Assembly (NCBI GenBank): GCA_022071965.1
Contig: JAJVIQ010000019.1
Coordinates: 136,793 to 200,792, forward strand
Length of the DNA: 64,000 nt
Direction: 5' to 3'
Source of the DNA: Gammaproteobacteria bacterium
GTDB taxonomy: Bacteria > Pseudomonadota > Gammaproteobacteria > JAJPIJ01
Position numbers and translations under genes: made by a program. This document shows positions 2,878-22,686 of this stretch, in pieces (position 1 is the stretch's first letter; each line of letters begins with the position of its first letter). The notes under the pieces were generated by a model that ran no database searches, was not told the origin of the DNA, and saw only the letters and a list, made by a program, of their open reading frames with translations.

Positions 2878-2965
2878 GCCGAGATGGCGGAACCGGCAGA
2901 CGCAGCGGACTCAAAATCCGCCGGGGTAACCCCCCGTGAGGGTTCGACTCCCTCTCTCGGCACCA
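2878..2965 (+). tRNA. leuX-like: tRNA-Leu(CAA), class II with long variable arm, CCA encoded
   Basis: GCCGAGATGGCGGAACCGGCAGACGCAGCGGACTCAAAATCCGCC...GGTTCGACTCCCTCTCTCGGCACCA. The acceptor stem GCCGAGA pairs with TCTCGGC, and the anticodon loop CUCAAAA gives anticodon CAA. It closely resembles E. coli leuX. Confidence 0.9.
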
Positions 2966-2966
2966 A
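2953..2966. repeat. attL-like copy of 14-bp direct repeat TCTCTCGGCACCAA (tRNA-Leu 3' end)
   Basis: Exact 14-mer shared with 10763..10776. This copy is the 3' end of the tRNA. Confidence 0.55.
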
Positions 2967-3157
2967 GTCCCCGTCCCCACGCCGCTCCAGCCGTCTCAGT
3001 CCGTCTACGTATCTAGCTGGAACTCAAGGTGTTTTTCGCGGTCTTACGCTCTACGCGTCCAAAATCGTCTCCATGAATCTCGTGTTTCGTGGGGGCATTT
3101 TTGGGGGCACCTGCCCCGCGAAATGGGGGCACATTTTTGCTGGGAGTCGAGTCCGAA

Positions 3158-4030
3158 ATGCCGTTGACAGTAGCCGCGATTAACCACGCCAGACCACGTG
3201 AGAAGGTCTACAAGCTCGCAGATGGTGGAGGCCTGTATCTTGAGGTCCATCCAACGGGCGCACGCTACTGGCGCTTGAAGTATCGCCACGCGAACAAAGA
3301 GCGTCGACTAGCAATTGGCGTATATCCCGATGTAACGCTCGCCGAGGCACGTACGGCGCGAGACAGTGCGCGCAAGCTCATCAAGAGCGGAAATGACCCG
3401 GTCGCGGTGAAGCGCGAGGTGCGCCGCAAAACCGAGTGCGAGGCGGCCAACACGTTCGAAATCATCGCCCGCGAATGGGTCGAGCACCAACGCGCACGCT
3501 GGACACCTGACCACGCAAGCACCGTCCTCCGGACCCTTGAGGCCAACGTGTTCCCAACCTTGGGGGCAAAGCCAATCACCAACATCACGGCGCCCGAACT
3601 GCTGGCGGCCATCCGCTCGGTTGAACGCCGCGATGCGCTGGAGGTTGCCTCCCGTGTGGCTCAGCGCTGCGGCGCGGTGTTCCGTTTCGCAATAGCGACG
3701 GGACCTACAACCCCGCTGCAGACCTTCGTGGCGCATTGAAGACAAGGAAGGTTACCCACCACCCCGCGCTCATGGCCAAGGACCTGCCGGAGTTCCTGGA
3801 TAACCTGGCTGCTTACGATGGCGATGAGCAGACTAAGAACGCCTTGAAACTCCTGATGCTAACCTTCGTCCGCACCGGTGAGCTTCGTGCCGCCGAGTGG
3901 AGCGAGTTCGACCTTGAGGGCGCGACTTGGCGCATACCGGCCGAGCGTATGAAGATGCGCGCACCTCACATCGTGCCGCTGTCGAAGCAGGCCGTCGAGG
4001 TCTTGAAGGCGCAGCAGGCACTTACCGGCC
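3158..4030 (+). pseudogene. int: P4-type tyrosine integrase, frameshifted and C-terminally truncated
   Basis: The N-terminus MPLTVAAINHARPREKVYKLADGGGLYLEVHPTGARYWRLKYR...RLAIGVYPDVTLAEARTARDSARKLIKSGNDP is the classic P4-integrase arm-binding domain. The reading frame breaks near 3712 at ...VFRFAIATG. The protein continues in the next frame (TYNPAADLRGALKTRKV...ELRAAEWSEFDLEGATWRIPAERMKMRAPHIVPLSKQAVEVL). Homology then ends near 4030, before the catalytic R..H..Y region. Confidence 0.75.
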
Positions 4031-4129
4031 TACCCGGGTTTCGAATTGTTGGCGGTTGGAAACCTGACAGCTCGGGAGCCTCCATAGCTAAACGCAAGAC
4101 GAATGGCACCAAGCCACCGCACCATCAAG

Positions 4130-4642
4130 ATGAACCGCGCCCCGGTGCTCACATTGTGGGCGGCCGTAGTGGCCGAGCGCTTGGGCTTCGACTGGGACGA
4201 GGCACTCACCATCGGTCGAGCCCTCGCCGGCCTGAACGCCTACGCCAAGGGCGTCTCCATCGGCCTGTTCCAGCCGACACCGAATGAGGTTAGGGAGCAG
4301 CGCCACAAGCTCCCCCCTGCGGAGACATTCACCGTCGACCTGCTGCATCGTGCGGTCCCGGCCGTCCATACCGGGCAGGGTGTGCGCGCACTGGACGAGG
4401 AGAAGCCCGCCGACCCGGCCAGCGTAAAGCAGTACCTGGAGGGCAAGTTCAAGGACGCCTTACCGGACGTGTACGAGGCTATGAAGACGCTTGCCGACGC
4501 CTACCCGCCAAGGAAACTCGCGGTAGAGGCCTACCACCTGTACGAGCAGTTCCGACCGGCCGTGCCCGCCGGGCAGCGTGGATGGGGTGCTGCCGGCGTA
4601 CTCGACCTCGACGCAATCAGAGGTCTGGCGCGGTTGGCCTAA
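4130..4642 (+). CDS. hypothetical protein (about 170 aa) of unknown function
   Basis: ORF 4103/4130..4642 (MNRAPVLTLWAAVVAERLGFDWDEALTIGRALAGLNAYAKGVSIG...). Its amino-acid composition looks coding. It is GC-rich, unlike the adjacent R-M genes. Its 3' end overlaps the res stop convergently by 26 bp. I recognise no family. Confidence 0.4.
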   Translation: MNRAPVLTLWAAVVAERLGFDWDEALTIGRALAGLNAYAKGVSIGLFQPTPNEVREQRHKLPPAETFTVDLLHRAVPAVHTGQGVRALDEEKPADPASVKQYLEGKFKDALPDVYEAMKTLADAYPPRKLAVEAYHLYEQFRPAVPAGQRGWGAAGVLDLDAIRGLARLA

Positions 4643-7600
4643 CATCCGCCGTTGCTGTCTCGGAGATCTGCGCCCCTACGTCACTTGCACGTTCCGCAAG
4701 CACGTACTGCCAGTAGCCGTAGGTTCCATCAGCATTCACTGCATTGGCCCACCGATGCGCCGCCTGCGCTTTCACGTCTTTCAGCGGGTCATACCCCTTC
4801 GTTTCAAATATCACAAACCGGTTGGATGTACCCTGCAGCCGGATGATGAAGTCGGGTATGTAGTCATGTGCCTGACCATCATGGAGATAAGGAATGGCAA
4901 ACCCGAGGTTGGCGTTCTTTACGAATGCTGAGACGTTGTCGTGAGTATCTATTGCGACAATAGCAGCCTGTTCCAGGCCGGAGTCGGCAACCATGAGGTT
5001 TAAATGACTCTTTTCAACTTGAACCACATTCTTGCTGGTCCAGAAATCGACTTCCGACGTGGTGCCCGGCCCGCGGTGCTTTTCAAACGACGGCAATTCC
5101 GCCGCCTCCCCTTGCATAACGTCCGGTTTAATGGCGGCGGTCAGTCGCTCGATGATCCAACCATAATAGGGGGATAGAAAGGCATCGAAGATGCTCGCGG
5201 GAGACAATGGCTTAACTCGCTCACGTAAATAACGGTCAACAATCTTCGCGATCTGCGGAAAAAGGGCGTGAGCTGGCGCTTCGCAGGAGGGTTGGGCGCA
5301 ATATTCTCGCGTCAGATCGCGCGCCATCTCAAACACCAGTGCCTGTAGGCGCTGGCCCGATCGGTAGGGATTGAGGTTCACGCTGACGATCTTTCCGGGG
5401 CCAAGCAACGAGTAGCGACCTTTGTTGCTTGGCACCCCGGCCTTCATTTCAACTTGTGGCGGGATTCTTACCGGATCCAGATCCAACGTTGCCACAGAGT
5501 TCCAATCAACGACAATACGATTAAGGATTTTTTGCCTGTATCCCATTACGCGAGGAAATTGAATTTCAAACTGCTTTTTCTGCGGAAGTGCATGGACGTG
5601 GAATCGCTTAGCGCGCGGTTGAGTAGGCGCACCCTGATTGGCCTTGAACGGAATGACCTCAAACGGCACTCCAAATATCTTCGCAACTTCCTCGCTGAGT
5701 AGCCCCGTGGTCTCGTCAATTTCGTAACTAGAACGCCGTAGCCCGCGACCCACCACCTGTTCGCACAGCAACTGCGACATGAATGGTCGCAGTCCGACGA
5801 TGTGAGTGACTGTGTTGCAGTCCCACCCTTCCGTCAGCATGCCGACGCTGACGATGCAGCGTATATCCCGACCCGGCGGGTGCGACGGGCGGCCGAGTTC
5901 TTTTGCCAGATCCTCGAAGCCATCGGGGTAAATTGGCCGCCCCGACCGATCGTTTGGCCAATTTACTTTGCCCACGGTGTCAAGCGTCAGCCGCATCCAA
6001 CGCATCTCGTCTGACTTCGCTTCATCGCTGTCTGTCTCGTGCACAACTTTGGTATCGACGCGAATTGTATGCGTCAACACGTCAGTGTTGCGTAGTTGCT
6101 CCAGCCGCGCCGACGCGATACCGGTTGGCGGTTTATCCTCTGCGAGCCACTCGTAGACTACCTTCGCGATTCGGGTGTTCTTGCAGACCAGAATAAACAC
6201 CGGCGGTCTTGGATCGTCAGTATTCCGGAGCCATTCCTTACGGGTCTGCTCCCACAACCCCCCCAACATGACTATCGGTGTGTATGCATACTGCAAGATT
6301 GCATCAGGTCTTGGATTGGCGCGCCGTCCACCACGCTGAGCAGCCGTCAGTTGAGGCAAAATCCAATGCCAGATGTTGAAGTACCCAGGAATCTCCTTGC
6401 CTGCCGTATCTCGCACCGCCAATTGCGGGATTTTCACCAGTCCCGACTCAATCGCGTCCGTCAACCCGAAATCGCTCACCACCCAAGGGAAGGTGCGATT
6501 GGTGTCCTGTCCGACCCGTCCGAGGTAATAGGGTGTCGCCGATAGATCCACACAGAAATTGATTCCTCGCAGCTTGTGAATACGGTCCAACCCGTCAATC
6601 CAGACAGTAGCTTCCTTGAAGAATTCGTCGATTTCCTCTTCATCGAATAAATCTTCCTCGCCCTCATCTGGCTCCGGTTTGCGGATGCGGTAGGCGTGAT
6701 GCGCCTCATCATTCAGCACGAGGATGTTTTTCTTTCCCCCAACCTCGCGCCCGAGTATTCGGTGAACGAGGGCCGTGTCGCTTTCAACGTACTTGCGCGA
6801 TTCGATGATTACTTTCTTCAGATTGCCGTCTATGTCGCACTCTTCCTCGATAATCTCAATCATTCCTGCATTAACCTGCCGCCGTAAATCCTCCAACGTC
6901 AGGTAGCGCGTGCCACGTGCCGTCGTCGACTTTTCTCCGATGGCGATCTTTTCCTTCACCCGTACCGGCTTGCCTGCCTTGGCAACCTTGGCGCTTGTCC
7001 CGCCAACTTGCACGGACTTCGGCTCGAATACGTGCCAGTTTGTGACTAGCACGCGCCCCTGCGTCATGAGCGGCATAAGGTGCTCAGGAATAAGGTCGCG
7101 GGTGCGGTAAAGACTCGCCTCGCCCGCCTCGGGATTCAACTCCGCCAAGCGGTTGCGGATGGTGACGTTGGGACAGACCACCAGCACCACATCGGAGAAC
7201 CGCCCGTCACTGCGATTGTTGAGCTTGTTAAGTATGCTCCACACGACCAACATGCCCATGACGGTCGTCTTGCCACTGCCAGTTGCCATCTTGCAGGCGT
7301 AGCGACGGAAGGCGCGATAGCCCTCGGCTCGGCGTTCCTCACTCATTTCATCCAGTGGCACATCGATACCTTGCAGGAAGTCCGACCGCGCCTCGGTGAG
7401 GAAAATAATCGTCTCCGCGGCTTCAAGCTGCGCGAAAAACAAACGATGCTTGCGTCCGTCGCGTCTCCAGTATTGAAGCAATTCTAATGAGGTGCGACTG
7501 ACACCGGGCCACTGCTGATCTCGCCACTCGCTGATCTGTTTTCGGACCTGATTTACCAACGTTAGATCTTGCCACTGCCCGCGCGCCTCATGTTCGCCAG

Positions 7601-7757
7601 CGTTGGATGTCCCCCGAGGTTCGCGATAGAAGTAACCGGCCGGACGGCGGCCTTTCCGCTCCTCTGGTGGTTCGCCTTCTGATATATACCAATATCGCGC
7701 CGGCTCCTCGTAGGGGCAGTTAAGGATTGGCTGCGGGACCTCGTAAGCCTCAGGCAC
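4617..7757 (-). CDS. res: Type III restriction enzyme Res subunit (SF2 helicase with C-terminal PD-(D/E)xK nuclease)
   Basis: 1046 aa. Walker A is CKMATGSGKTT and the DEAH box is LNDEAHHA. Helicase motif VI-like is QVVGRGLRR. The C-terminal YIPDFIIRL...FVIFETKG is a nuclease motif. It starts 2 bp after the mod stop. The region has visibly lower GC than its flanks. Confidence 0.85.
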   Translation of the reverse strand: MPEAYEVPQPILNCPYEEPARYWYISEGEPPEERKGRRPAGYFYREPRGTSNAGEHEARGQWQDLTLVNQVRKQISEWRDQQWPGVSRTSLELLQYWRRDGRKHRLFFAQLEAAETIIFLTEARSDFLQGIDVPLDEMSEERRAEGYRAFRRYACKMATGSGKTTVMGMLVVWSILNKLNNRSDGRFSDVVLVVCPNVTIRNRLAELNPEAGEASLYRTRDLIPEHLMPLMTQGRVLVTNWHVFEPKSVQVGGTSAKVAKAGKPVRVKEKIAIGEKSTTARGTRYLTLEDLRRQVNAGMIEIIEEECDIDGNLKKVIIESRKYVESDTALVHRILGREVGGKKNILVLNDEAHHAYRIRKPEPDEGEEDLFDEEEIDEFFKEATVWIDGLDRIHKLRGINFCVDLSATPYYLGRVGQDTNRTFPWVVSDFGLTDAIESGLVKIPQLAVRDTAGKEIPGYFNIWHWILPQLTAAQRGGRRANPRPDAILQYAYTPIVMLGGLWEQTRKEWLRNTDDPRPPVFILVCKNTRIAKVVYEWLAEDKPPTGIASARLEQLRNTDVLTHTIRVDTKVVHETDSDEAKSDEMRWMRLTLDTVGKVNWPNDRSGRPIYPDGFEDLAKELGRPSHPPGRDIRCIVSVGMLTEGWDCNTVTHIVGLRPFMSQLLCEQVVGRGLRRSSYEIDETTGLLSEEVAKIFGVPFEVIPFKANQGAPTQPRAKRFHVHALPQKKQFEIQFPRVMGYRQKILNRIVVDWNSVATLDLDPVRIPPQVEMKAGVPSNKGRYSLLGPGKIVSVNLNPYRSGQRLQALVFEMARDLTREYCAQPSCEAPAHALFPQIAKIVDRYLRERVKPLSPASIFDAFLSPYYGWIIERLTAAIKPDVMQGEAAELPSFEKHRGPGTTSEVDFWTSKNVVQVEKSHLNLMVADSGLEQAAIVAIDTHDNVSAFVKNANLGFAIPYLHDGQAHDYIPDFIIRLQGTSNRFVIFETKGYDPLKDVKAQAAHRWANAVNADGTYGYWQYVLAERASDVGAQISETATADVRPTAPDL

Positions 7758-7759
7758 GT

Positions 7760-10537
7760 CTACCGAGCCTCCTTCAGCGACTTCACGACCATTAACTCAT
7801 TGCCGCGGTCGTCGATGACTTTTACCGCCACTTGACCATGCTCGCCAGCTTCGAACGGTGCACTGACACTGCCGGCGAGATGTTCCCACACCGAGTCTTG
7901 GAACTCCCCTTTAAGCGCCCTCTTGAGGGAATCCCAAGCGCCTGTGCGGGGGAAAAATGCCTGGCAGACGTGAAAGCACAGGCCGTTGTAATCGGTGTCG
8001 AGGAACCAGGCCGGCACATCGTCACCTTTTCGCTGGTCCACCTCCATCGTCACGGGATCGAAAACATCCAGACCAAGCAATTTGACGGCATAGCACAATG
8101 GCTCATCCGCGACAGTCTTAACCTTGCTCACCTTGACCTCGGGAAGTCCACAGACGCTAAAGATCTGGCTGGAACGCATGTTCTTGAGCAAATCACCCAT
8201 GAGCAAATCGGGCGTTGCTTGCACGTACGTCGCGGGCACACCTACCGCCGCCTCGCACTTCTCGATCAGTTTTCGTGCGTCAGGCTGAATCGCAAAGCCG
8301 ATTACGTACAAGTAATCATAATGCTTGGCATGTGCCTCACGCGCCGCTTCGTAAACCAGTTTCTCGCTGACGGCACCACCCTCTGGTCCGAATACGATGG
8401 CAACAGGACGGCCGGATAAAGGCAACGTGCTGCTGTTCTCCTCGTCTGCGACCTGCAATGCCTCGTCAATCGATATCGGGCCTGGTATGTGCGCGACCTC
8501 AACAATCGCCTCAGCAGAAAGCGTGAGGGTCTTCGCTGGTGGGCGGACATTGCGCAGGGTGGCCGACTTACCGCCATCGATATGTAGCGCCGGCGAGCGG
8601 CGTAGCACTTCAAGCATGCGGTCGACGAAGCTGCCGTGCGACTCCGCCACGGTGGCGACGCCGGAATCCTCGACGCCGTCTCCCTCCCAGTCTATAGGCG
8701 TGGGGATGGTCGCCTCGACACAGAAGGGACCGGTGACTCTCGTGATTTTGTCATTAGTCTCTGGTCGGTCCACCAGCACCTCTTCAGCGGGCGGTTCGTC
8801 ATTGGCGATACTCCCGAGCGTAATATGCGGCACGATACCGCCGACCTCCTCGCCCTTGCTGTTCTGTCTCCGCTTGTAGACGAAACCGCCGGCAGGGCCG
8901 CGGTCGCACTCCTTCAGTTCGTAGTACGGGAACGTGGCAGTGAGCAGCCGTTGCCTCGCCAAAGCCAGTGGGACTCGGCTTGTATCAACGGTTATCCAGC
9001 GCCGCCCCCACTGTTCGGCGACATAAGCTGTGGTGCCGCTACCGCAAGTCGGATCCACGACAAGATCACCTGGGTCTGTGGTCATCAGCATGCAGCGTTG
9101 TATGACCTTGGCCGTTGTCTGAACCACATATGACTGCTCTTCCGTGAAGCTCCCGGCCCCGCTATCGGTCCATACGTTGTTCAAATACGCCACCGGGAAA
9201 TCATCGAGAAAAGATGCCGCCCGAACGTTATCCCCTACGGGGAAAACACGTCCAAGTTCCGCAAGACGCTGGAGACCACTCATGGTGAACCTCCAATGTT
9301 TGTTGTGCGGAACTCGGTATGAGCGACCCTTAAACTCGAAGACTTCGTCCGAGTTCTTGCTCGCGCCCTGAGCATATAGGGCCATACTCTGAAACAGGCG
9401 AATCCCCTTCGGTACCTTGTCGGGGTGCTGTTGCTCACCCATAGAAACTGTCTTGACGTCGCCAGCCGAATCAAAGTAGTACCGGAATGCTGCCAATCCT
9501 GCAGGCGCCTGATCCCGAGGAAAGAACAACTGCCGATATTTCATCCGCGACGGGTCTTTGGAGTACCAAAGAAGGTAGTCGCACACTGTCGGTAGACGTC
9601 CTGTATCTAACCCTCCCGTTTTCTTGAATGAAATTTGGCTCACGAACGATTCCGCTCCGAAAATTTCATCCATTACCTCGCGAACATGATGCACATTCTC
9701 ATCTGAGATCTGCACGAATATGCTGCCGGACGGTGCAAGTAAGTCGCGGGAGAGCAATATCCGGTCGCGCAAATAGGTGAGATAGGAGTGCAGGCCCAAC
9801 TCCCAGGTGTCGCGGTAGGCCTTAACCATCTCCGGCTCGCGCGTCATGTCCTCGTCGTCATTGTGGGCTACGTCGCGCCTGCGCACGAATGGTTGGAAAT
9901 TACTCCCGAATTTCACCCCGTAGGGCGGGTCCATATATATCATCTGCACCTGCCCTCCCATGCCCTCATAGTGCAGAAGCGAGTTCATCGCTGCGAGCGA
10001 GTCCCCGAGCACCATACGGTTTGTCCAGCCGTTCATGTGCTCGTAGGCGCGGAGCACCTGTTCGTGAATCGGATGCTGCCGGTCCCCGAACAGGTCAAAC
10101 AGGTCGATCTGCCTATCGCGCTTGTGGCCTTTCAGCGTTTCGAGGATGGCGCGGGTGCTTAGTCGTTCATGGATGAACAGCGGCAATGTCGGCACGTCGA
10201 ATGACAGGCGCTCGGCCTTGCCAGCCCAGTTAAGGAAGGGCTTGCTGAAAGCGCGAAGTTTCTCGGCGGCGGCCTTGGCCTCGCCCAAATCCTTGGCTTC
10301 AAGAATCTGGCGAATCAGCGTCTCACCTTGCTCCCTCGTCGGGTTCTGTCCATCCCAATCCAACGCCGGAGACAGTGAAGAATCGAATCGGTATGTTTTT
10401 GGTGGCTTCTTCTTCCTGAACTGTGCCTGTGTGCCGACCTCTGGGCGCAGTAGCAATGAGGCGGTAGGGTGACTGTAATTTTCAGTTTGTTTTCCTGGTT
10501 GGCCAGTAGCTTTCTCTCGGCCCTTTTTCCTCGGCAT
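7760..10537 (-). CDS. mod: Type III R-M Mod subunit (beta-class N6-adenine/N4-cytosine DNA methyltransferase), unusually long
   Basis: Motif IV IYMDPPYGVKFGSNF precedes motif I VVDPTCGSGTTAYVAEQWGRRWITVD, a circular permutation typical of Type III Mod. There are about 400 aa after motif I. The ORF is open to 10612 (alternative starts at 10612 and 10570). The ATG at 10537 (MPRKKGREK) follows a G-rich RBS. Confidence 0.85.
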   Translation of the reverse strand: MPRKKGREKATGQPGKQTENYSHPTASLLLRPEVGTQAQFRKKKPPKTYRFDSSLSPALDWDGQNPTREQGETLIRQILEAKDLGEAKAAAEKLRAFSKPFLNWAGKAERLSFDVPTLPLFIHERLSTRAILETLKGHKRDRQIDLFDLFGDRQHPIHEQVLRAYEHMNGWTNRMVLGDSLAAMNSLLHYEGMGGQVQMIYMDPPYGVKFGSNFQPFVRRRDVAHNDDEDMTREPEMVKAYRDTWELGLHSYLTYLRDRILLSRDLLAPSGSIFVQISDENVHHVREVMDEIFGAESFVSQISFKKTGGLDTGRLPTVCDYLLWYSKDPSRMKYRQLFFPRDQAPAGLAAFRYYFDSAGDVKTVSMGEQQHPDKVPKGIRLFQSMALYAQGASKNSDEVFEFKGRSYRVPHNKHWRFTMSGLQRLAELGRVFPVGDNVRAASFLDDFPVAYLNNVWTDSGAGSFTEEQSYVVQTTAKVIQRCMLMTTDPGDLVVDPTCGSGTTAYVAEQWGRRWITVDTSRVPLALARQRLLTATFPYYELKECDRGPAGGFVYKRRQNSKGEEVGGIVPHITLGSIANDEPPAEEVLVDRPETNDKITRVTGPFCVEATIPTPIDWEGDGVEDSGVATVAESHGSFVDRMLEVLRRSPALHIDGGKSATLRNVRPPAKTLTLSAEAIVEVAHIPGPISIDEALQVADEENSSTLPLSGRPVAIVFGPEGGAVSEKLVYEAAREAHAKHYDYLYVIGFAIQPDARKLIEKCEAAVGVPATYVQATPDLLMGDLLKNMRSSQIFSVCGLPEVKVSKVKTVADEPLCYAVKLLGLDVFDPVTMEVDQRKGDDVPAWFLDTDYNGLCFHVCQAFFPRTGAWDSLKRALKGEFQDSVWEHLAGSVSAPFEAGEHGQVAVKVIDDRGNELMVVKSLKEAR

Positions 10538-10762
10538 AACTACCCCCCAACTGAAGATTTCCTTGTTCATCACCGACGGTCCCCAGTCGGTTGCCAATTG
10601 TTCACGACACATAGAGTACAGGTGACTGCCTCAGATTCCCAAGCTTGGCAGCGAAGTCAATCGCGCCACTTAGGCTTCTGCTGCAACTAGATGCCGACGG
10701 CCACTGTACCGCTCGCCCATCCCGCCCCAAGCTGGTTCAATTTCCGCCCAACGGCGGTTGAG

Positions 10763-10776
10763 TCTCTCGGCACCAA
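10763..10776. repeat. attR-like copy of 14-bp direct repeat TCTCTCGGCACCAA
   Basis: Exact match to the tRNA-Leu 3' end (2953..2966), in the intergenic region just beyond the mod start. A given 14-mer is expected about 5e-4 times by chance in 64 kb. Confidence 0.55.
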
Positions 10777-10996
10777 TTGCTAGCCGGATCGGGTATCATC
10801 ATACTGCGCCGATTTGAAGTGACCAGCTTGCGGGCGCGTAACAAATACAGCTAACGCGGGCAGGAACTCATGAACCCGCCTTGGCTGCCAAGCTGACGCG
10901 GGTCTTCTATTGCACCGCATAGTTAGATAGACAACTTGCCATTGCCACGGTCTATCCGGCCCTCCGTGCCGCGGATGCGCGGCATGATTTCCCCGA

Positions 10997-12042
10997 TCAT
11001 GCGTCGGTGTCCTCTGGCACCAGCATCCACACGCGCTTCAGCGGCAGTTCGGCCTGTATCTCCGCCGGCAGTCGCTCATAAGTCCGGTAAATCGCCTCGA
11101 CGAGATCGCGGCTCTCCCATAACCGCACCGTGAAATGGCCCTGCCGAGCCTCACTCAGCACTGACCCTTTGAAACCGCCCCAACACACGAGCAAGCCTTG
11201 CTCCGCCTTGAAGGTCTGCATCGAGCCCTGCAACGTCCGGTAAATCGTGACGTCAGCGGGACTGTTTTGCGACTTCACCTGCACGCAGAGTCGCGGGACG
11301 TCAAGGCCGAGGGGACCGCGTCCACCTAGGATGTCGACACCTCCATCCGCCCCGGGAGGCGACACTTTTGTTACCCAACCGTCGGCCTGTAGCACCGCAT
11401 CCACGAGGCTCGCTAACGCGTGACCCGCAAACCGTGTCTGGATATGTGCCACGATTTGGTCATGGGCGAGCTGCGCGAGATCGGGAACTTCCTCGGGTTC
11501 GAGTGTGGGTGGGGCCGCGCCCGCCTTTTTCGGCTTGCCGAGCGCTACCGAGGGGCCGGGATCCGGCTTGCCGGCCAGCACCGCTGCGACACGCCGCTCC
11601 GCGTCGTTGCGTGAGATGTTGCAGACCGTCATGAAGGCGCCGAACGAGTGCAGCAGGTCTTGCTCGAACGCGGTGCGCGGCACGTCCGGCCGCAACCATT
11701 CCACCGCTCGGGTATGGCGCAAATCGCTGCCGACCTTCTGGTATCGGTAAGGCCCTTTCACACGCCCGATGGCAATCTGTGATGTCAACTTGCGTGGTAG
11801 CACGACGAGGTCGCCCTCGTTCATCGCAATCACAAATGCCCCGTGATATTGCCGACAGCGCGCGGCTTGGCACCCGGCAGGCTGGCTTCGACGATCTTGA
11901 AGATGGCATCGTAATCCTTCGCCCCCTCCAGTGATGGGATGTGCCGGAAACCGATAATGGCGAGATTACCTTCTAGAGCGGCCTCCTCGTCCTCCCCCAG
12001 CCTGCCCGCTCGCGTCAGATAGACCTTTGGTACCTCACTCAT
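10997..12042 (-). pseudogene. mrr-like: Mrr-like (Type IV) restriction endonuclease, split by a frameshift
   Basis: The upstream 70-aa ORF (MSEVPKVYLTRAGRLGEDEEAALEGNLAIIGF...AKPRAVGNITGHL) matches the N-terminus of Mrr-cat family restriction enzymes. The downstream 278-aa ORF continues the same family (MNEGDLVVLP...) and carries the Mrr catalytic core GGVDILG...LCVQVKSQ. The two ORFs are joined by an ATGA start/stop overlap at 11830-11833. Confidence 0.65.
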
Positions 12043-12169
12043 TGCATTCCTCCGGAAGTTTCAAATAGCAAAGCATAAATAGGTACCAGTTGAAGGAACT
12101 CGGGTGGCGCTTGGAGAGCGGATCGTTTGCGAAGACCAAACCGTGCGCAAGGAGGCTACCCGATGAAAG

Positions 12170-12420
12170 TAAGTGTACTGGAGATGCCGTGGCCCGTCTG
12201 GCGGCAACTGCAGCGCGTGGTGAAGAAGTCGCGAGACGTCGACCATGTATGATGTGCGCCGAGGTTGCTGAGGCTGCACGTACTGGGCGGTAATGTGAGC
12301 GCGGCCGCGCAGGTGTGTGGCGCCTCACGCGGGGCACTGCGGCATTGCCCAACGCTCTACGAGAGCGGCGGTAAGCAGCCCTCGCACCGAAGTGGCGTGG
12401 GCTCAAAAATATTAGCTCAG
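12170..12420 (+). pseudogene. IS630/IS481-like transposase N-terminal HTH remnant
   Basis: Frame-broken peptide ELPWPVWRQLQRVVKKSRDV ... RLLRLHVLGGNVSAAAQVCGASRGALRHCPTLYESGG resembles the N-terminal HTH of IS630/IS481-family transposases. No DDE domain follows. Confidence 0.35.
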
Positions 12421-12425
12421 AGATC

Positions 12426-13112
12426 ATGCGCTACGCCATAGCCACAGGCCGTCGCAAGGACGACCCGGCCGCGGCTTTGAAAGGAGCATTCAAGACCCGA
12501 ACAGCTGAGAATCACCCCCACCTCGAACGCGCCGACCTGGGGCCATTCCTGCGCAAACTCCATGACTACGCTGGTCGGCACGAAACACGGATCGCCGTAC
12601 AACTGCTGATGCTGACTGCCGTTCGGACTGGCGAGCTGCGGGCCGCCAAGTGGACCGAGATAGATTTCAGCGCCAAAGAATGGAGCATCCCGGCGGATCG
12701 GATGAAGATGCGGTCACCGCACGTCGTTCCGCTCTCCCGGCAGGCCATTCGATTGCTGGAAGAACTGAAGACCTACACCGGCTACAGCGAGTACCTGTTC
12801 CCCAACCATGGCAAGCACCCGCACATGAGCGAGAACACGGTCAACAAGGCACTGCACGGCCTCGGTTACAAGGGCGAGCTCGTGGGCCACGGCTTTCGCG
12901 CCACATTCAGCACAATCGCCAATGAATCCGGGAAGTTCAATCCGGATGCCATCGAGCGGTCGCTGGCGCATAAGGACAAGAACCCTGTTCGGGACATATA
13001 CAACCGCGCCAAGTACCTGCCGGAGCGACGGAAGCTGATGCAGTGGTGGGCAGACGATCTCGATGCTGCCCAGAATGGAGCGAAGATTGTGCGCCTCACA
13101 CGACGTGATTAG
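12426..13112 (+). pseudogene. int: P4-type integrase fragment (catalytic domain only, N-terminal half missing)
   Basis: Begins MRYAIATGRRKDDPAAALKGAFKTR..., corresponding to the middle of P4-type integrases. It includes HVVPLSRQAIRLL, HGFRATFST and a C-terminal RD-containing tail. There is no arm-binding domain. Confidence 0.75.
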
Positions 13113-13208
13113 CCGCACAAACGCGGTTTCGGCCTCTTTGACTATTGCCAGACGAGATCCTAAACTTCTACCCGACTACTACCCCGATGGTTTCGACTGT
13201 CGGGCGCG

Positions 13209-13235
13209 GGGCCCCTTCGGGGGCCCTAGCTTTTT
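13209..13235 (+). terminator. Rho-independent terminator (7-bp GC stem, UUCG tetraloop, T5)
   Basis: GGGCCCC-TTCG-GGGGCCC followed by TAGCTTTTT, located between the integrase fragment and the NYN gene. Confidence 0.55.
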
Positions 13236-13250
13236 CTGAGGGCATGGACG

Positions 13251-13889
13251 ATGAATAAGGCGCCCCTCCGCACCTACGTCTATATCGACGGGTTCAATTT
13301 TTACTACGGGCAAGTCAAAGGCACCCCCTGGAAGTGGCTCGATCCCGTCGCCCTGTTTCGGAAAGTCCTCCGCCCTCAAAACGACATTCGCAAGATCAAG
13401 TATTTCACCGCACGAGTCGAACCCACACCCTACGACCCTGACGCGAACGTTCGACAGGACACATACCTCAGGGCACTGACGGCTCACTGCCCAAACGTAG
13501 AGCTACATTTTGGTCACTTTCTCCGTCATCAGATTTTCATGGAGAACGCCAATCCACCGCCTGGCAAGGTCTGCGTTTGGAAGAACGAAGAGAAGGGCTC
13601 CGACGTAAACCTCGCGCTGCACCTGCTGAATGATGCCTGGAGGGATGAGTACGACTGCGCCGTCGTCGTCTCGAATGACTCCGATCTTGCTGAGGCACTT
13701 AGAATGGTTCGCGAACAGAACGGCAAAGTCATCGGTGTGGTTACTCCAGGCGCACCGAAACGGAGAACATCATGCCAACTCGCCAAGTATGCTCACTTCA
13801 TCAGCCCGATAAGAAAGTGGGCTCTGCAGGCCAGTCAGCTACCTTCCCCGATTCCTGGAACGACGATCAGGAAGCCGGATACCTGGTAG
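13251..13889 (+). CDS. NYN-domain (PIN-like) ribonuclease family protein
   Basis: 212 aa. Motifs YIDGFNFYYG, GSDVNLALHL and VVSNDSDL are typical of the NYN/LabA-like nuclease fold. A GAGGG RBS precedes the ATG. Confidence 0.75.
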   Translation: MNKAPLRTYVYIDGFNFYYGQVKGTPWKWLDPVALFRKVLRPQNDIRKIKYFTARVEPTPYDPDANVRQDTYLRALTAHCPNVELHFGHFLRHQIFMENANPPPGKVCVWKNEEKGSDVNLALHLLNDAWRDEYDCAVVVSNDSDLAEALRMVREQNGKVIGVVTPGAPKRRTSCQLAKYAHFISPIRKWALQASQLPSPIPGTTIRKPDTW

Positions 13890-13948
13890 CTTCACAGTTG
13901 CCTCGGTGCAGAGCCTGGGGGTGCGGCCTTGCTGCTCGTGCGCATGCG

Positions 13949-14037
13949 GATTCCGGTCGATGCCGGGCAGTGATTCCGGTCCATGCCGGCACGGATTCCG
14001 GCTGATGCCGGCAGCGATTCCGGCGCATGCCGGCAGG
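13949..14037. repeat. four tandem 22-bp direct repeats (GATTCCGGYNNATGCCGGSASN), consistent with IS21-family multiple terminal repeats
   Basis: Repeats at 13949-13970, 13972-13993, 13994-14015 and 14016-14037, lying 60 bp upstream of the istA fragment. No spacers, so not CRISPR. Confidence 0.7.
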
Positions 14038-14099
14038 TTCGGTGGGACGGGTAACCAACGCTACCGTAGCGCCTTTTCCAACGTGGAGAGGGGGCGACG

Positions 14100-14669
14100 G
14101 TGGCGCAAACGAGGTTACCCATGCGAAAGATCCGCGAGGTATTGCGACTCAGGTATGAGCACGGCCTGAAGGACGGCCAGATCGCCGCGGCCATTGGCTC
14201 GGCGCGCTCCACGGTGCAAGAGTGCGTGCGCCGGGCACAGCAGGCAGGGTTGAGCTGGCCGCTGCCCGAGGGGTTGGACGAGCTGGCGCTGCAGTCGCTG
14301 TTGTATCGGCGCGAGGTGCCGCTGTCGCGCACGCCGGCACCGGATTTCGCCAGGCTGCATGCCGAGCTCAAACGTCCCGGGGTGACACGGCTGCTGCTGC
14401 GGCAGGAGTACAAGGCCGAGCGCCCCGATGGCTGGCAGTACAGCGTGTTCTGCGATCAGTACCGTCGCTGGCTGGCGCGTCAGGATGTGGTGCTGCGCCA
14501 GCAGCACGTGCCCGGCGAGAAGCTGTTCGTGGACTACGCCGGGCAGACGGTGGCGGTCATCGATCGGCACACCGGTGAGAGCCGCCCCGCGCAGATCTTC
14601 GTGGCCGTGCTCGGCGCCTCCAGCCACACCTATGCCACTTGTTCTTCGTGGACGGCGGGGCGGCAATGA
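14100..14669 (+). mobile_element. istA: IS21-family transposase IstA, N-terminal fragment (truncated)
   Basis: MRKIREVLRLRYEHGLKDGQIAAAIGSARSTVQECVRRAQQAGLSWPLPEGLDE... matches the IstA N-terminus. The ORF is interrupted after about 180 aa, where an IS5-family fragment begins on the opposite strand. Confidence 0.75.
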
Positions 14670-15105
14670 TGGTGGCATCGACGATCGTGCCGGTGCCGAT
14701 CTTGACCCCCTGCGCCTCCAGGTGACGATGCACCTGCTGGAACAGCTTCACGCCCAGGTTGTGCTCCTCCAGCAGATGGCGGAAGCGCAGCACCGTGGAT
14801 TCATCCGGCGCCGGCGCATCGGCCAGATCCACCCCGGCGAAGCGGCGCATCGAGGCCGAATCGTACAGCGCCTCTTCCACGCCCGGATCCGAGAGATTGA
14901 ACCATTGCTGCAGGAAGTACACCCGCAGCATCATCTCCAGTTCCTTGGGCGGGCGACCGTCGCCGGCCTTCGGGTATTTCGGCGCAATCAGCCTGCACAG
15001 CTCGGCCCATGGCACGATGCGCTCCATCTCGGCCAGAAACTTCGCCCGCTTCGTCGTCCTGGAGAACTTCTCAAAGCCCGTGCCCAGGGTCAGCTGTTTG
15101 CTCAA
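14557..15105 (-). mobile_element. IS5-family (IS1182/IS5-like) transposase N-terminal fragment
   Basis: MSKQLTLGTGFEKFSRTTKRAKFLAEMERIVPWAELCRLIAPKYPKAGDGRPPKELEMMLRVYFLQQWFNLSD is the hallmark IS5-family N-terminus. The DDE domain is missing. An imperfect inverted repeat at about 15140-15180 may be the IS end. Confidence 0.65.
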
Positions 15106-15251
15106 TGCCGTCTCCGATGTGTTTCGGTGTGCCTACCGATCAGATCGTGGACTTTTGCAGAGGTTCCTTAGACTGCTTCTAGGCAGAACCTCTTCTGGCC
15201 GCATCGATCAGCGGTAAGCAATTCCCGCAAGAAAGAGCGACAGATCGTGCC

Positions 15252-16028
15252 TTACCCTGCTTGCCTCAGGTTCGCGCCGAGGACATCGCTGACCAGTTCG
15301 CCCCCGCCTTCGCGAATGGCATCGTGCAAGATCACTCTTACTTCGCGTAGAAACTCCTCGGAGTGCGCGTCAAGAGCCGGTCCAGGCACAGGCGCGGAAT
15401 TCTCGTAAATCATGCGAATGACGCTAGCGCGGTCATAGGTGGACCCGCGTCCGCGATAGTCAAACGCTCTCATCCAGTCCCTGCGCGGGACGCGCAACAG
15501 CTTCTGTTCCACATAGCCGTGCAACCGAGCGAAAACAGCGCGCTGGACCTGGGACAGCGCGGCGTCGGCTTCCGGCTCGCTCGGCGCACGCGGCTGCCAG
15601 CGGATCGGCTTGTCGAGAAACTTAGTAATCGATTCCGACAGGCGCGCCACGAGATCCGCGACGGGCTTAAGATCCTTGTACTCGCCCTCATTGATGTCGA
15701 GCACCACGCGGCGGTTCATCGCCTTGACTTCTGCCCAATGCGCCTTGCGGACAGTGGACGATCCCGTAAACAGGATGGCGTTCCAGCGCGCATGAAACTC
15801 GGCAGCAGCCGCTTGGATGGCGAGAACGAGTCCAGCCGTATCGTAAACGGGACAGACTTCCGCAACGTCCGCCGGCATGATGGCGGCTTCGCAGAAATCC
15901 ATCAGCTTGAGCAACTCGCTTACGGGTCCGCGCTGCTTCTCTGTCAGGGGGCGGTTGAGGAAACCGAGCATGAAGCAGCGTTCATCAAGCCCGCGTTCAA
16001 TCGCCCGGCGGTGGTGCTCCGAGATCAT
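15252..16028 (-). CDS. hypothetical protein, 258 aa, unknown function
   Basis: The ORF has a balanced, coding-like composition (MISEHHRRAIERGLDERCFMLGFLNRPLTEKQRGPVSELLKLMDFCEAAIMP...). The opposite-strand ORF is Arg-rich junk. I recognise no family. Confidence 0.45.
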   Translation of the reverse strand: MISEHHRRAIERGLDERCFMLGFLNRPLTEKQRGPVSELLKLMDFCEAAIMPADVAEVCPVYDTAGLVLAIQAAAAEFHARWNAILFTGSSTVRKAHWAEVKAMNRRVVLDINEGEYKDLKPVADLVARLSESITKFLDKPIRWQPRAPSEPEADAALSQVQRAVFARLHGYVEQKLLRVPRRDWMRAFDYRGRGSTYDRASVIRMIYENSAPVPGPALDAHSEEFLREVRVILHDAIREGGGELVSDVLGANLRQAG

Positions 16029-16200
16029 GCGCTACGCCATTGCCACCGGCCGGCGTCGCGACGACCCTGCAGCCGCTCTCAAGGGAGCGTTCCGGACACG
16101 CGCGGCCACACACCTCCCCGCCCTGTCACGCACCGAACTCGGTCCCTTCCTGCGGGCGCTGGTCGAATACCCCGGCCGTACCGTGCGGGTGGTAAAGACG
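16027..16200 (+). pseudogene. int: third P4-type integrase remnant (short internal fragment)
   Basis: MRYAIATGRRRDDPAAALKGAFRTRAATHLPALSRTELGPFLRALVEY... begins at the same residue as the fragment at 12426. Homology is lost after about 55 aa. Confidence 0.55.
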
Positions 16201-16311
16201 ATATCCAAGGACCTCGGATCGTCTCATTACGAGCCATATTGGCCGTTGACCCGATCATTCGACGCATGGATACGCGGGAGGACGCCCGAATCGATGGCTC
16301 TGGAAGTTCGT

Positions 16312-20654: not shown

Positions 20655-21768
20655 TAAGGCAGGAGTTCCGTGATTGGCCTGCCATCAAACCTCTATCATC
20701 AGCATAGAACGATTTGATCTTGATGCAATATCGGGCATCGATCGCACTGCTATTTCAGTGAGTTGCTCGACCACGCCGTTGCGCCGCGGCGGGGTGCCCA
20801 GGTACCGAGAGCAGGAACTGATCCGCGGTTTCGGCCAGCGGCGCGGCACGCCAATGCCGGACGTCAATGCAAACCCCAATGCCGTCGTAGAAAGAATGGG
20901 ACAGGAACTCCTAGTCAACCGGGCTCACGTCAGAAGCCTGTGCCTCCCTACTGTGAGGTGGACACATAGACGTGGGGACCATCGCTGCCGATACTACCTT
21001 GCGTCGCTGTATGAAGAACCGACAGCGCATTGCATCGCAGCCTTGTAGGGGCATTCAGTTGGTGTTTCGGGGCTATTGGCAAGAAGGTCGGCATCGCGCA
21101 GATTGCGCTCGGCAGCGGCGAGCCGCCTCTGCACCTCGTCGCAATCCGGCGGATGCTGTTTCCGTTGCCCAGTCGTCAATAGGTTCTCAGCGCTCATCGA
21201 CTCCGCCGATCAGCATGGGGCTGGGTTCGGCATCACGCTGGAGACGAATCAGTCCTTAGCCTTGCGCTTGCGCGCGATGTCAGTGACGTGGTAGTGCTCC
21301 GGATTACCGATGCGGGCAGTGGTGATCAGGCTCACCTGCTCCATGCGCTTCGTCACTTGGGGGGCGTTGCGGGCACTCACGCCCGTGAGCCGCGCGATCG
21401 CGCGAATGTGAAGGCGCTACTCGCCGTGTATCAGCAACAGCTCCAGCAGGCGTCGGTGGTTGTCGCCAAACAGCGGGACAGCGGGATCGGTGGGGCTTTG
21501 GGTCTGCCTTGCCGCAGGCGCAACGATCGTTGTCCACACGACAACGCCTTGTAAGGCCTGTTTCCCGACTCGCTGTCGCGAGGCTCGTGTGCCGGACGCC
21601 CGGCAGAGGTCGGGAACCGGGCGAGAGGCGGGCGAATCCGGGGCACTCGCGGGGTAACCAACGGCAATGACCGAGCCCTGTTGTTCCGTCTCGATAGGGG
21701 GTGACGTTCGGTTTTCGATTCCCCTCGCTGCCCAGCAATCGCAGACTATGCTCGAAAGCCCCGCACCG

Positions 21769-22686
21769 TCATTGGCGCATCACGGTCAGCAGCACCTCGT
21801 TGCCGCGGCCGCGGTATTCCACGTCGTCGAAGCACATCAGGCGGCTCATCGCGATGCCGCGGCCATGCAGATCGAAGGCGCGCGCCGGATTGAAGTCGAG
21901 GTAGGCCTGCCAGTCGAATCCGGCCCCCTCGTCGAAGATCGTCAGCGTCACACGGTCAGCGAGATTCTCCAGGATGATCCGCGCCTGGCGCCTGGCGAAT
22001 CGCGGCAGGGAGAGGCGCCGCTCGATCTCCGCCTGCCAGGCGCCGTCGCGCAGCAGCGCCGATTTGTCCTCGTAGGTCAGCTCGAGATTGCCGTGCTCGA
22101 CGGCATTCAGCAGGAACTCCGAGACGCCGGTCACCACGCGCTGCGGGTCCGGGAAGAACAGCGCCAGGTGCGCCGCGAGCGTGCTCACCTCCTCCAGCGT
22201 GCGGCATCTGAACTCTGCGAGGTGCAGCATCGCGTTTCCATGCGCCTGGCGGTTGAGACGCGCCTGAAGATCGCGGTGATTCTTGCCATCGCTGACCGCG
22301 GCGGCGACGATCGCGCGCAGCACGTCGCTGTTGAACGGCTTGGCAAGGTAGTAGTAGGCGCCCTTGGCGATCCCCTCGGCCACCTGCCGCGGCTCCGCCA
22401 GGCCGGTCTGGATGATGACGGGCACGTCGCGCAGGCTCGGATCGGACTTGATCCTGCCGAGAAACTGCATGCCATCCTCGCCTGGCATGTTCCGATCCAG
22501 CAGCACGGCGTCGAAGGCGGGCTGCAGCGGCTGCTTCAGCAGTTCCCATGCGCGATCGCTGCTTTCGGCCACGACCACCTCGAATCCCTCCGGCGCGAGG
22601 TACTTGTCGATGAGCTTGAGATAAAAGGCCTCGTCGTCGACCGCGAGGACGCGGGCCGGGCCGGCCGTCGTCGCCGACAGGCTCAT
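21769..22686 (-). CDS. response regulator: REC domain fused to a HATPase (anti-sigma-factor kinase-like) domain
   Basis: REC is VLAVDDEAFYLKL...LLDRNMPGEDG. The C-terminal half carries NAVEHGN, DEGAGFD and GRGIAMS motifs, as in RsbW/SpoIIAB-like HATPases. A strong GGAGGTGG RBS precedes the ATG at 22686. A GTG at 22722 is an alternative start. Confidence 0.75.
   Translation of the reverse strand: MSLSATTAGPARVLAVDDEAFYLKLIDKYLAPEGFEVVVAESSDRAWELLKQPLQPAFDAVLLDRNMPGEDGMQFLGRIKSDPSLRDVPVIIQTGLAEPRQVAEGIAKGAYYYLAKPFNSDVLRAIVAAAVSDGKNHRDLQARLNRQAHGNAMLHLAEFRCRTLEEVSTLAAHLALFFPDPQRVVTGVSEFLLNAVEHGNLELTYEDKSALLRDGAWQAEIERRLSLPRFARRQARIILENLADRVTLTIFDEGAGFDWQAYLDFNPARAFDLHGRGIAMSRLMCFDDVEYRGRGNEVLLTVMRQ

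What the first reader, a model, noticed from the sequence alone, without database searches (positions are those of the whole stretch)
7760..10612. Unusually long Type III Mod subunit (about 925-950 aa) with roughly 400 aa after motif I
Typical Type III Mod proteins are about 550-700 aa, with around 200 aa after the FxGxG motif. Here DPPY (motif IV) and DPTCGSGTT (motif I) are in the normal beta-class order. A further stretch of about 400 aa follows, and it is not obviously a methyltransferase. This could be an extra DNA-recognition, regulatory or partner-interaction domain. It would make this a variant Type III (or Type III-like) system.
Basis: partly seen in the sequence, partly recalled or inferred. 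Interest (0 to 1): 0.55.

Follow-up and report, generated by a model that had tools for sequence, protein, structure and literature searches.

The report
Long Mod of catalogued Type III-like system
The long DNA methyltransferase gene is real, but its extra C-terminal 390 residues are a normal, highly conserved feature of a very large and already catalogued (though biochemically unstudied) Type III-like restriction-modification family, and they probably dock the partner helicase-nuclease rather than read DNA sequence.

Summary
ORF 7760-10612 (-) encodes a beta-class DNA methyltransferase of 950 codons, probably 925 aa from ATG 10537. DPPY is at aa 228-231 and DPTCGSGTT at aa 520-528, with 422 aa after motif I. 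No Pfam or PDB sequence match covers that tail.

The protein is not an oddity. At least 474 species genomes and 2,195 50%-identity clusters carry the same C-terminal module. PADLOC has a 983-position "Type III MTase" model that is co-linear with it. In 72 of 73 informative loci the gene sits with a helicase-nuclease of NCBIfam's "BPTD_3080 family restriction endonuclease". In this window that gene is 4617-7757, starting 2 nt after the mod stop.

The variable, specificity-type region is central (aa 326-494, column identity 0.38). The tail is as conserved as the catalytic core (0.74-0.83), so it is not a target recognition domain.

The parts
7760..10612 (-). mod gene, maximal ORF of 950 codons plus TAG stop. 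The probable real start is ATG 10537 (M26), giving 925 aa.
   Evidence: An identical 936-aa protein (P0001) is deposited from a Gammaproteobacteria MAG. Homologues begin at the position of M26.
10025..10477 (-). Conserved N-terminal region (aa 46-196) upstream of the methyltransferase core. It has no Pfam family and is longer than the EcoP15I NTD (aa 14-60).
   Evidence: Column identity 0.76, peaking at 0.96 for aa 126-150. No Pfam hit. No PADLOC model matched this region when it was scanned on its own; in the whole-protein scan the PDLC03632 match begins at aa 117.
9638..10024 (-). Methyltransferase N-half (aa 197-325, motifs IV-VIII), with DPPY at 9920-9931.
   Evidence: PF01555. PDB Type III Mods 6k0w, 4zcf and 7dsu match aa 193-356. 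Column identity 0.89.
9131..9637 (-). Variable central insert (aa 326-494), the presumed target recognition domain. It sits in the same position as the EcoP15I TRD.
   Evidence: Column identity 0.38 against 0.74-0.89 for the flanking regions. EcoP15I domain map from PMC4490356.
8933..9130 (-). Methyltransferase C-half (aa 495-560, motifs X and I-III), with DPTCGSGTT at 9029-9055.
   Evidence: Column identity 0.87.
8648..8932 (-). C1 (aa 561-655): conserved connector carrying the motifs VPHITL.SIA and L.D.P...RV.GPF.VE. Distant relatives have 40-200 aa helical insertions here.
   Evidence: Low model confidence.
8135..8647 (-). C2 (aa 656-826): predicted restriction-endonuclease-like alpha/beta domain. 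Conserved features are hAE(A/G) (E701, nt 8510-8512), FGP (aa 741-743, nt 8384-8392), GF(A/S), an invariant D802 and LLK (808-810). A variable insert lies at aa 705-733. There is no canonical D...(D/E)xK.
7763..8134 (-). C3 (aa 827-950): beta-rich terminal domain, probably an Fn3/Ig-like sandwich, ending in the invariant AVKVID.RGNE motif.
4617..7757 (-). res gene (1046 aa), an SF2 ATPase with a C-terminal PD-(D/E)XK nuclease. The GTG start lies 2 nt after the mod stop, behind a GAAGGAGG ribosome-binding site. Walker A is at 7266-7280, DEAH at 6699-6710 and PD...ETK at 4797-4856.
   Evidence: NCBIfam NF046055 'BPTD_3080 family restriction endonuclease', 1033 bits against a cut-off of 800, end to end. 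Pfam ResIII plus RE_endonuc. Motifs conserved in 35 homologues. Junction sequence.
10997..11833 (-). Upstream neighbour on the same strand: an Mrr_cat nuclease ORF (PADLOC candidate PDC-S02). It is not part of the conserved mod-res unit, since it is absent from all 82 related loci.

Best explanation
Nucleotides 4617-10612 (-) are a two-gene, Type III-like restriction-modification operon of the 'long Mod / BPTD_3080-family Res' lineage, carried on a low-GC defence island next to tRNA-Leu.

Mod is a beta-class amino-methyltransferase. Its sequence specificity most likely lies in the variable central insert (aa 326-494), as in EcoP15I.

The ~390-aa C-terminal extension is a fixed, family-wide module. 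It has a connector (C1), a restriction-endonuclease-like but probably catalytically dead alpha/beta domain (C2) and a beta-sandwich (C3). I propose it is an enlarged functional counterpart of the EcoP15I Mod CTD. In that role it would hold the Res helicase-nuclease on the Mod dimer and perhaps position or gate its nuclease domain, or clamp non-specific DNA. Res would then supply ATP-driven communication and cleavage through its own intact PD...ExK site.

Shown here: gene structure, family membership, the conservation pattern, mod-res linkage and the predicted fold. Inferred: Res docking, lack of nuclease activity in C2, Mod2Res1 stoichiometry, and the methylated base and motif.
For: 1. Operon. 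The mod stop and res start are 2 nt apart, with a strong ribosome-binding site.
2. Linkage. Res lies downstream on the same strand in 72 of 73 informative related loci from many phyla. Linkage persists in a distant subfamily (27-32% identity in the tail) where the gene order is reversed: PCC 7002 pAQ5 and a P. amygdali plasmid.
4. Res. It has conserved GSGKT, DEAH, SAT, TEGWD, QxxGRGxR and a C-terminal PD...ETK. Its nuclease domain hits the Type III Res model PRK15483 and Pfam RE_endonuc.
5. Variability. It is confined to aa 326-494 (0.38). The tail scores 0.74-0.83, and its most conserved stretch (aa 801-825, 0.95) is poorly modelled in the monomer, as interface segments often are.
6. Fold. 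C2 gives restriction-endonuclease-fold hits in two independent models and with Foldseek.
7. Active site. The position where Mrr-type enzymes carry (E/Q)xK is occupied by a near-invariant F-G-P (G 22/22, P 21/22). The following residue is not conserved.
8. Precedent. In EcoP15I the Mod CTD (aa 539-644) is the element that makes extensive contacts with Res (PMC4490356).
Against: - No interaction data or multimer model exists, so Res docking rests on analogy and on co-occurrence.
- The C2 fold assignment depends on AlphaFold models of only moderate quality (mean pLDDT 65 and 57). No sequence-profile support was found: hmmsearch against the PDB, hhalign against the neighbouring Mrr ORF and against the Res nuclease domain, and Pfam scans of 22 diverse members were all negative.
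- C2 keeps several near-invariant charged residues (E701 18/22, D802 22/22, K810 20/22). A non-canonical active site cannot be excluded.
- The tail did not superpose on the EcoP15I CTD. Only 268 residues of 4zcf_B aligned, and 4zcf was absent from the top 60 hits of the tail-only search. 'Counterpart of the CTD' is therefore a functional analogy, not homology.
- Res shows no sequence similarity to EcoP15I Res beyond generic helicase and nuclease motifs, so the mechanism could differ from classical Type III.
Confidence: 0.55

Rival explanations
1. The C2 domain is an active, or co-active, nuclease. Mod would contribute a second catalytic centre, or complete a composite one with the Res nuclease. 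A single complex could then cut both strands, unlike classical Type III enzymes, which need two converging complexes.
For: Restriction-endonuclease-like fold in two models. Among the hits are the BspD6I large and small subunits, which work as a heterodimeric nuclease. E701, D802 and K810 are near-invariant across members only 23-60% identical. The tail is under very strong purifying selection.
Against: The canonical D...(D/E)xK is missing. The beta-strand that should carry (D/E)xK carries F-G-P instead. D802 and K810 lie after the last core strand, in a helix that Mrr-like domains also end with. The E668 position is E or D in only 14 of 22 members. No nuclease family is detected by sequence. 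Res already has a complete, conserved PD...ETK site.
Confidence: 0.12
2. The tail is an additional DNA-binding module. It would act as a non-specific clamp, or as a reader of DNA ends or of modification status, helping the complex stay on DNA or sense methylation. It would not primarily bind Res.
For: Inactive restriction-endonuclease-fold domains and Ig/Fn3-like sandwiches often bind DNA (established knowledge, not tested here). Structural hits include the modification-dependent enzymes AspBHI and MspJI. High conservation is compatible with binding a sequence-independent feature.
Against: No DNA-binding family is detected by sequence. The AspBHI and MspJI similarity most plausibly involves their nuclease domains. 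The tail co-occurs strictly with one Res family even when gene order changes. That argues for a protein partner, although the two roles are not mutually exclusive.
Confidence: 0.2
3. The extension is the specificity (TRD-like) domain, or a second one.
For: It lies outside the methyltransferase core and is large enough to form a TRD.
Against: It is among the most conserved parts of the protein (0.74-0.83). The central insert at the canonical beta-class TRD position is the only hypervariable region, at 0.38. A domain that is ~70% identical from Nitrospira to Moorella to Gammaproteobacteria cannot account for diverse specificities.
Confidence: 0.03
4. Artefact: two adjacent genes fused by a sequencing or assembly error, or an over-extended ORF.
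For: The first 25 codons of the maximal ORF are probably not translated.
Against: Single ORFs of 852-1139 aa with the same end-to-end architecture occur in the listed homologues and in complete plasmids of cultured bacteria: M. avium, Planktothrix, Synechocystis, Shinella, Agrobacterium and PCC 7002.
Confidence: 0.01

Closest known systems
Long Mod / 'BPTD_3080 family restriction endonuclease' systems (NCBIfam NF046055 for Res; PADLOC PDLC03632 'MTase_III' for Mod)
   Same: Res scores 1033 bits end to end against NF046055, whose cut-off is 800. Mod matches PDLC03632 at E 1e-144 and co-linearly: aa 117-605 to profile 73-586, and aa 738-943 to profile 765-980 of 983. The same mod-res pairing is annotated on M. 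avium pS2b, Planktothrix p3, PCC 7002 pAQ5 and P. amygdali plasmids.
   Different: Nothing essential differs; this is the family the locus belongs to. Here res abuts mod directly, as in 16 of 72 relatives. Most relatives carry an extra gene or genes between the two. I found no experimental paper on the family: no text hit for BPTD_3080, and no solved structure by sequence search.
Classical Type III R-M (EcoP15I/EcoP1I, Mbo45V, H. pylori Mod; Mod2Res1)
   Different: Mod is ~925 aa against 567-644. It has a longer conserved N-terminus and a ~390-aa tail in place of the ~105-aa alpha/beta CTD, with no detected structural match to that CTD. Res has no phmmer-detectable similarity to EcoP15I Res and falls far below the cut-off of the Type III Res model PRK15483 (27.9 bits against 564). 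Biochemistry is untested.
Type ISP enzymes (LlaBIII/LlaGI)
   Different: Type ISP is a single chain with an active N-terminal nuclease, a motor, a gamma-class methyltransferase and a TRD. Here the nuclease-like domain is C-terminal to a beta-class methyltransferase and lacks the catalytic motif. The motor and the real nuclease are on a separate Res protein.
m4C Type III systems with accessory ATPase (Murray et al. 2021, PMC8259958)
   Same: They show that Type III systems are structurally diverse, can need Res for methylation, and can carry a third ATPase gene. Many relatives of this locus carry an ABC-type ATPase too.
   Different: In those systems the ATPase lies 5' of mod, and the paper says nothing about a long tail on Mod. 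In this family the ATPase, when present, lies between mod and res. The window locus has none.

Membership tests
Type III restriction-modification system | Adjacent, co-oriented mod and res genes forming one operon | tested here: met
   The mod TAG (7760-7762) and the res GTG (7757) are 2 nt apart, with a GAAGGAGG ribosome-binding site. Linkage holds in 72 of 73 informative loci.
Type III restriction-modification system | Mod is a beta-class N6A/N4C methyltransferase (motif IV before motif I) with the TRD inserted between the two halves | tested here: met
Type III restriction-modification system | Res is an SF2 helicase-like ATPase with a C-terminal PD-(D/E)XK nuclease | tested here: met
   GSGKT 160, DEAH 350, motif VI at 667, PD 968-969 and ETK 985-987, all conserved in 35 homologues. 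Pfam ResIII and RE_endonuc.
Type III restriction-modification system | Res recognisable as a Type III Res by curated models or solved relatives | tested here: not met
   PRK15483 scores 27.9 bits against a cut-off of 564, and only over the nuclease domain. PADLOC REase_III models give E 5e-8 or weaker over ~45 residues. phmmer finds no match to EcoP15I Res in the PDB.
Type III restriction-modification system | Mod of ~550-700 aa with a short alpha/beta CTD | tested here: not met
Type III restriction-modification system | Short asymmetric site, methylation of one strand, ATP-dependent cleavage that needs two inverted sites, Mod2Res1 stoichiometry | not testable with these tools
   Needs methylome data and biochemistry.
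BPTD_3080 family restriction endonuclease (NCBIfam NF046055, equivalog) | Whole-protein score above the curated cut-off of 800 bits, with end-to-end alignment | tested here: met
   1033.2 bits; aa 8-1033 against profile 2-968 of 970.
PADLOC MTase_III cluster PDLC03632 (983-position profile) | Co-linear match that includes the C-terminal module | tested here: met
   E 1.3e-144 with two stretches: aa 117-605 to profile 73-586, and aa 738-943 to profile 765-980. The middle of the tail (aa ~606-737) is not aligned.
PD-(D/E)XK (restriction-endonuclease-like) superfamily, for domain C2 | alpha-beta-beta-beta-alpha-beta core fold | tested here: inconclusive
PD-(D/E)XK (restriction-endonuclease-like) superfamily, for domain C2 | Catalytic D...(D/E)xK signature on strands beta2 and beta3 | tested here: not met
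   The expected positions carry hAE(A/G) and F-G-P, with no Lys, and residue 744 is not conserved.
RAMA or other known methyltransferase-associated reader domains | Pfam match in the tail | tested here: not met
   No Pfam family at E<=10 for aa 561-950, nor for 22 diverse C2 sequences.

The most novel reading that the evidence does not exclude
The long-Mod / BPTD_3080 lineage is a mechanistically distinct branch of ATP-dependent R-M. In it the methyltransferase carries a conserved pseudo-nuclease (or cryptically active nuclease) domain. That domain would pair with the Res nuclease to form a heterodimeric cleavage module, or would gate its activation. DNA cutting would then not depend on the collision of two Res subunits as in EcoP15I.
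Probability: 0.15. Interest if true: 0.6.

Novelty: new member of a known kind. Interest (0 to 1): 0.3.

Why it matters
For this window, the finding reduces to an ordinary member of a widespread, database-catalogued R-M family, sitting in a defence island.

The family itself is worth a look. It occurs in hundreds of species across more than ten phyla and on plasmids of model organisms. It is unusually conserved outside its specificity region. More than 500 of its Mod residues have no Pfam domain or solved structure, and it seems never to have been studied biochemically.

If the predicted nuclease-like domain of Mod contacts or regulates the Res nuclease, that would be a new way of coupling methylation and cleavage in Type III-like enzymes. 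Practically, these systems are likely transformation barriers in Nitrospira, Moorella, Planktothrix and Synechococcus PCC 7002. They may also explain orphan asymmetric methylation motifs.

Tried and rejected
- Pfam, NCBIfam and PDB sequence searches of the tail alone and of the N-terminal 166-191 aa found nothing.
- A profile of 22 diverse C2 sequences against PDB sequences gave no hit at E<=10.
- hhalign of that profile against the neighbouring Mrr_cat ORF (probability 0.1) and against the Res nuclease-domain alignment (probability 0.5) gave no support.
- A Pfam scan of every C2 member returned only noise.
- The afdb50 fold library was unavailable.
- Literature: no hit for 'BPTD_3080'. Searches on Type III Mod C-terminal domains, B. 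pertussis methylomes, cryo-EM of Type III systems and a 2025 R-M review turned up nothing on this family. The m4C Type III paper (PMC8259958) and the adenine-methyltransferase classification (PMC4738411) do not describe this architecture.
- The PADLOC paper cites REBASE, but I could not verify how model PDLC03632 was built.
- There is no homologue of the tail in 50,697 phage records.
- A 102-aa 'hypothetical protein' on PCC 7002 pAQ7 that matches C2 looks like a gene remnant and was not informative.
- No tRNA-derived att repeat bounding the island was found.
- Rejected ideas: that the tail is a TRD (conservation pattern), a gene-fusion artefact (hundreds of intact orthologues), or a RAMA-type reader (no Pfam match).
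Full report
**Observation**

The minus-strand ORF 10612-7760 is intact, with 950 codons and a TAG stop. DPPY is at aa 228-231 (nt 9920-9931). DPTCGSGTT is at aa 520-528 (nt 9029-9055). The order is the beta-class one, and 422 residues follow motif I.

Pfam sees a single domain, PF01555 N6_N4_Mtase, spanning aa 222-545. The last 390 aa hit no Pfam family even at E<=10 and no PDB sequence. Homologues begin at the position of M26, and ATG 10537 is preceded by a G-run. The real product is therefore probably 925 aa. Solved Type III Mod chains are 567-644 aa.

**What surrounds it**

Two nucleotides after the mod stop, behind a GAAGGAGG ribosome-binding site, starts a 1046-aa ORF at 7757-4617. It matches NCBIfam NF046055 'BPTD_3080 family restriction endonuclease' end to end, at 1033 bits against a cut-off of 800.

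This protein has Walker A (GSGKT 160), DEAH (350), SAT, TEGWD and QVVGRGLRR, plus a C-terminal PD(968-969)...ETK(985-987). All are conserved in 35 homologues. Pfam ResIII and RE_endonuc give weak hits, as does the Type III Res model PRK15483 on the nuclease domain only. phmmer finds no similarity to EcoP15I Res.

The pair lies in a 4-22 kb stretch of 56-63% GC, within a window that is otherwise 66-72% GC. It sits next to tRNA-Leu, between integrase remnants, with an Mrr-type nuclease (PADLOC PDC-S02) and a NYN protein (HEC-09) nearby. This is a defence island.

**Is the long Mod unusual?**

No.
- The best 120 homologues are 852-1139 aa and 63-100% identical, over 94-99% of the query in all but one (a 1139-aa protein covering 70%). 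Those that carry a source name come from Gammaproteobacteria, Nitrospira and Nitrospiraceae, Acidobacteriota, Ignavibacteriales and Proteobacteria.
- A filter-free search with the tail alone finds 2,195 clusters at 50% identity, 282 of them at E<=1e-30. Of ten full-length representatives checked, eight carry PF01555. The other two are fragments that start inside an intein-like Hint/DUF559 insert.
They include Spirochaetota, Planctomycetota, Bacteroidota, Moorella and Actinomycetota.
- Forty plasmids of cultured bacteria carry the tail.
- PADLOC has a 983-position 'MTase_III' model, PDLC03632. It matches Mod at E 1e-144, and its positions 765-980 align with aa 738-943.

Only the last ~210 aa of the tail align to the PADLOC model, and REBASE itself was not available to check.

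**Anatomy**

Column identity over 76 homologues was measured region by region (alignment).

| Region | Residues | Column identity |
|---|---|---|
| N-terminal region | 46-196 | 0.76 |
| Methyltransferase N-half | 197-325 | 0.89 |
| Central insert | 326-494 | 0.38 |
| Methyltransferase C-half | 495-560 | 0.87 |
| C1 | 561-655 | 0.78 |
| C2 | 656-826 | 0.77-0.83 |
| Loop within C2 | 705-733 | 0.47 |
| C3 | 827-950 | 0.74 |

The only hypervariable part is the central insert. It lies exactly where EcoP15I has its TRD (aa 263-384, between the methyltransferase halves; PMC4490356). The tail is therefore not a specificity domain.

**Fold of the tail**

Foldseek puts RPB5 first (probability 0.94-0.98) and also lists AspBHI. 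From my own knowledge, the RPB5 N-terminal domain is classed as restriction-endonuclease-like.

Across 22 members only 23-60% identical to the window protein, C2 conserves the following:
- hAE(A/G), with E701 in 18 of 22
- F-G-P, with G742 in 22 of 22 and P743 in 21 of 22
- GF(A/S)
- D802, in 22 of 22
- LLK, with K810 in 20 of 22

By secondary-structure order, E701 sits where PD-(D/E)XK enzymes have the first Asp, and F-G-P sits where they have (D/E)xK. There is no Lys there, and residue 744 varies. That placement is my inference. The domain is thus most likely a catalytically dead nuclease fold.

This rests on predicted structure only. hmmsearch against the PDB, hhalign against the neighbouring Mrr ORF and against the Res nuclease domain, and Pfam scans of all members gave nothing. 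The invariant D802 and K810 leave a small chance of a non-canonical active site.

**Partnership with Res**

Res lies downstream on the same strand in 72 of 73 informative loci. In a distant subfamily, with tails only 27-32% identical, the order is res-(small genes)-mod, yet the partner is still annotated as BPTD_3080 family. Examples are PCC 7002 pAQ5 and a P. amygdali plasmid.

This persistent co-occurrence makes Res docking or assembly the best-supported function. Two further points agree with it. In EcoP15I it is the Mod CTD that contacts Res. The most conserved tail segment (aa 801-825, identity 0.95) is poorly modelled in the monomer. I give this explanation a probability of about 0.55. 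Rivals are DNA clamping or sensing (0.2), an active or co-active nuclease (0.12), a TRD (0.03) and an artefact (0.01).

**Comparison and novelty**

The locus works like a Type III system. It meets the genetic and domain-order criteria. It fails two membership tests: Res is not recognisable by curated Type III Res models, and Mod size and CTD differ. Biochemical criteria are untestable here.

It is a clear member of the catalogued long-Mod / BPTD_3080 family. I found no experimental or structural paper on that family. Verdict: new member of a known kind, interest 0.3. The most novel reading still open is that Mod's pseudo-nuclease domain partners or gates the Res nuclease (probability ~0.15).

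**Things seen in passing**

- Most relatives carry 'cargo' between mod and res: an ABC/OLD-like ATPase in 22 loci, an MNT-HEPN pair in 5-6, and other genes in 27.
- Some relatives have an intein with a DUF559 homing endonuclease inserted just before the Cys of motif I.
- The cassette is flanked by integrase remnants.

Noticed in passing
L003-L082, L001, L002 (e.g. L007:9182-10831; L027:3936-4638; L002:8721-9785); window 7757-7762 for comparison: The mod-res junction of this family is a cargo slot. Only 16 of 72 loci have res abutting mod as in the window. Twenty-two carry a ~550-aa AAA_15/AAA_21 ABC-type ATPase (PADLOC NsnB/AriA/GajA/PtuA-like). Five or six carry an MNT (NTP_transf_2) plus HEPN toxin-antitoxin pair. 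Twenty-seven carry other genes. In PCC 7002 pAQ5 (L083) a UPF0175/DUF3368 pair sits between res and mod. This recalls accessory defence genes embedded in Type I operons.
   Followed up: partly
P0233, P0263 (relatives); corresponds to window nt ~9046-9049, before C523 of DPTCGSGTT: Some family members carry an intein-like insert (Hint plus a DUF559/Vsr-like homing endonuclease). It ends '...AIHN' immediately before the Cys of methyltransferase motif I. The unusual Cys in DPT-C-GSGTT could serve as the +1 extein residue.
   Followed up: partly
window 2878-4287 and 12426-13112; repeat 12415-12553 / 16016-16154: tRNA-Leu(CAA) is followed by an integrase split into two ORFs (3089-3739 and 3736-4287), whose catalytic domain stops at profile position 82. 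A second, 5'-truncated integrase lies on the other side of the R-M cassette (12426-13112). A 139-nt direct repeat (73% identity) is at 12415 and 16016. The layout suggests nested or decayed islands. No att repeat was found.
   Followed up: partly
window 10997-11833 (-) and 13251-13889 (+): Other defence-type genes flank the R-M. An Mrr_cat nuclease matches PADLOC candidate PDC-S02 (E 3e-113) from profile position 72 onward, so it may be N-terminally truncated or mis-started. A NYN-domain protein matches PADLOC HEC-09 (E 4e-45).
   Followed up: partly
window 4000-22000 versus the rest: GC content is 0.56-0.63 across about 4-22 kb, against 0.66-0.72 across the rest of the window. This fits horizontal acquisition. 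The low-GC block also holds a response-regulator GGDEF-EAL protein (16312-18756) and a PAS histidine kinase (18729-20654).
   Followed up: no
window 10163-10237 (aa 126-150 of Mod): The N-terminal segment FLNWAGKAERLSFDVPTLPLFIHER is the most conserved stretch of the whole protein (column identity 0.96). It lies outside any known domain and is poorly modelled. It may be a second interface motif.
   Followed up: no
L083 (PCC 7002 pAQ5, mod at 5129-7942); L085:4998-5306 (pAQ7): The model cyanobacterium PCC 7002 carries a distant member of this family on pAQ5. A 2025 methylome study (PMC12362590) reports three methylated motifs with no assigned enzyme. A 102-aa ORF on pAQ7 and on NC_010478.1, next to an integrase on pAQ7, matches the C2 domain and looks like a mod remnant.
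   Followed up: partly
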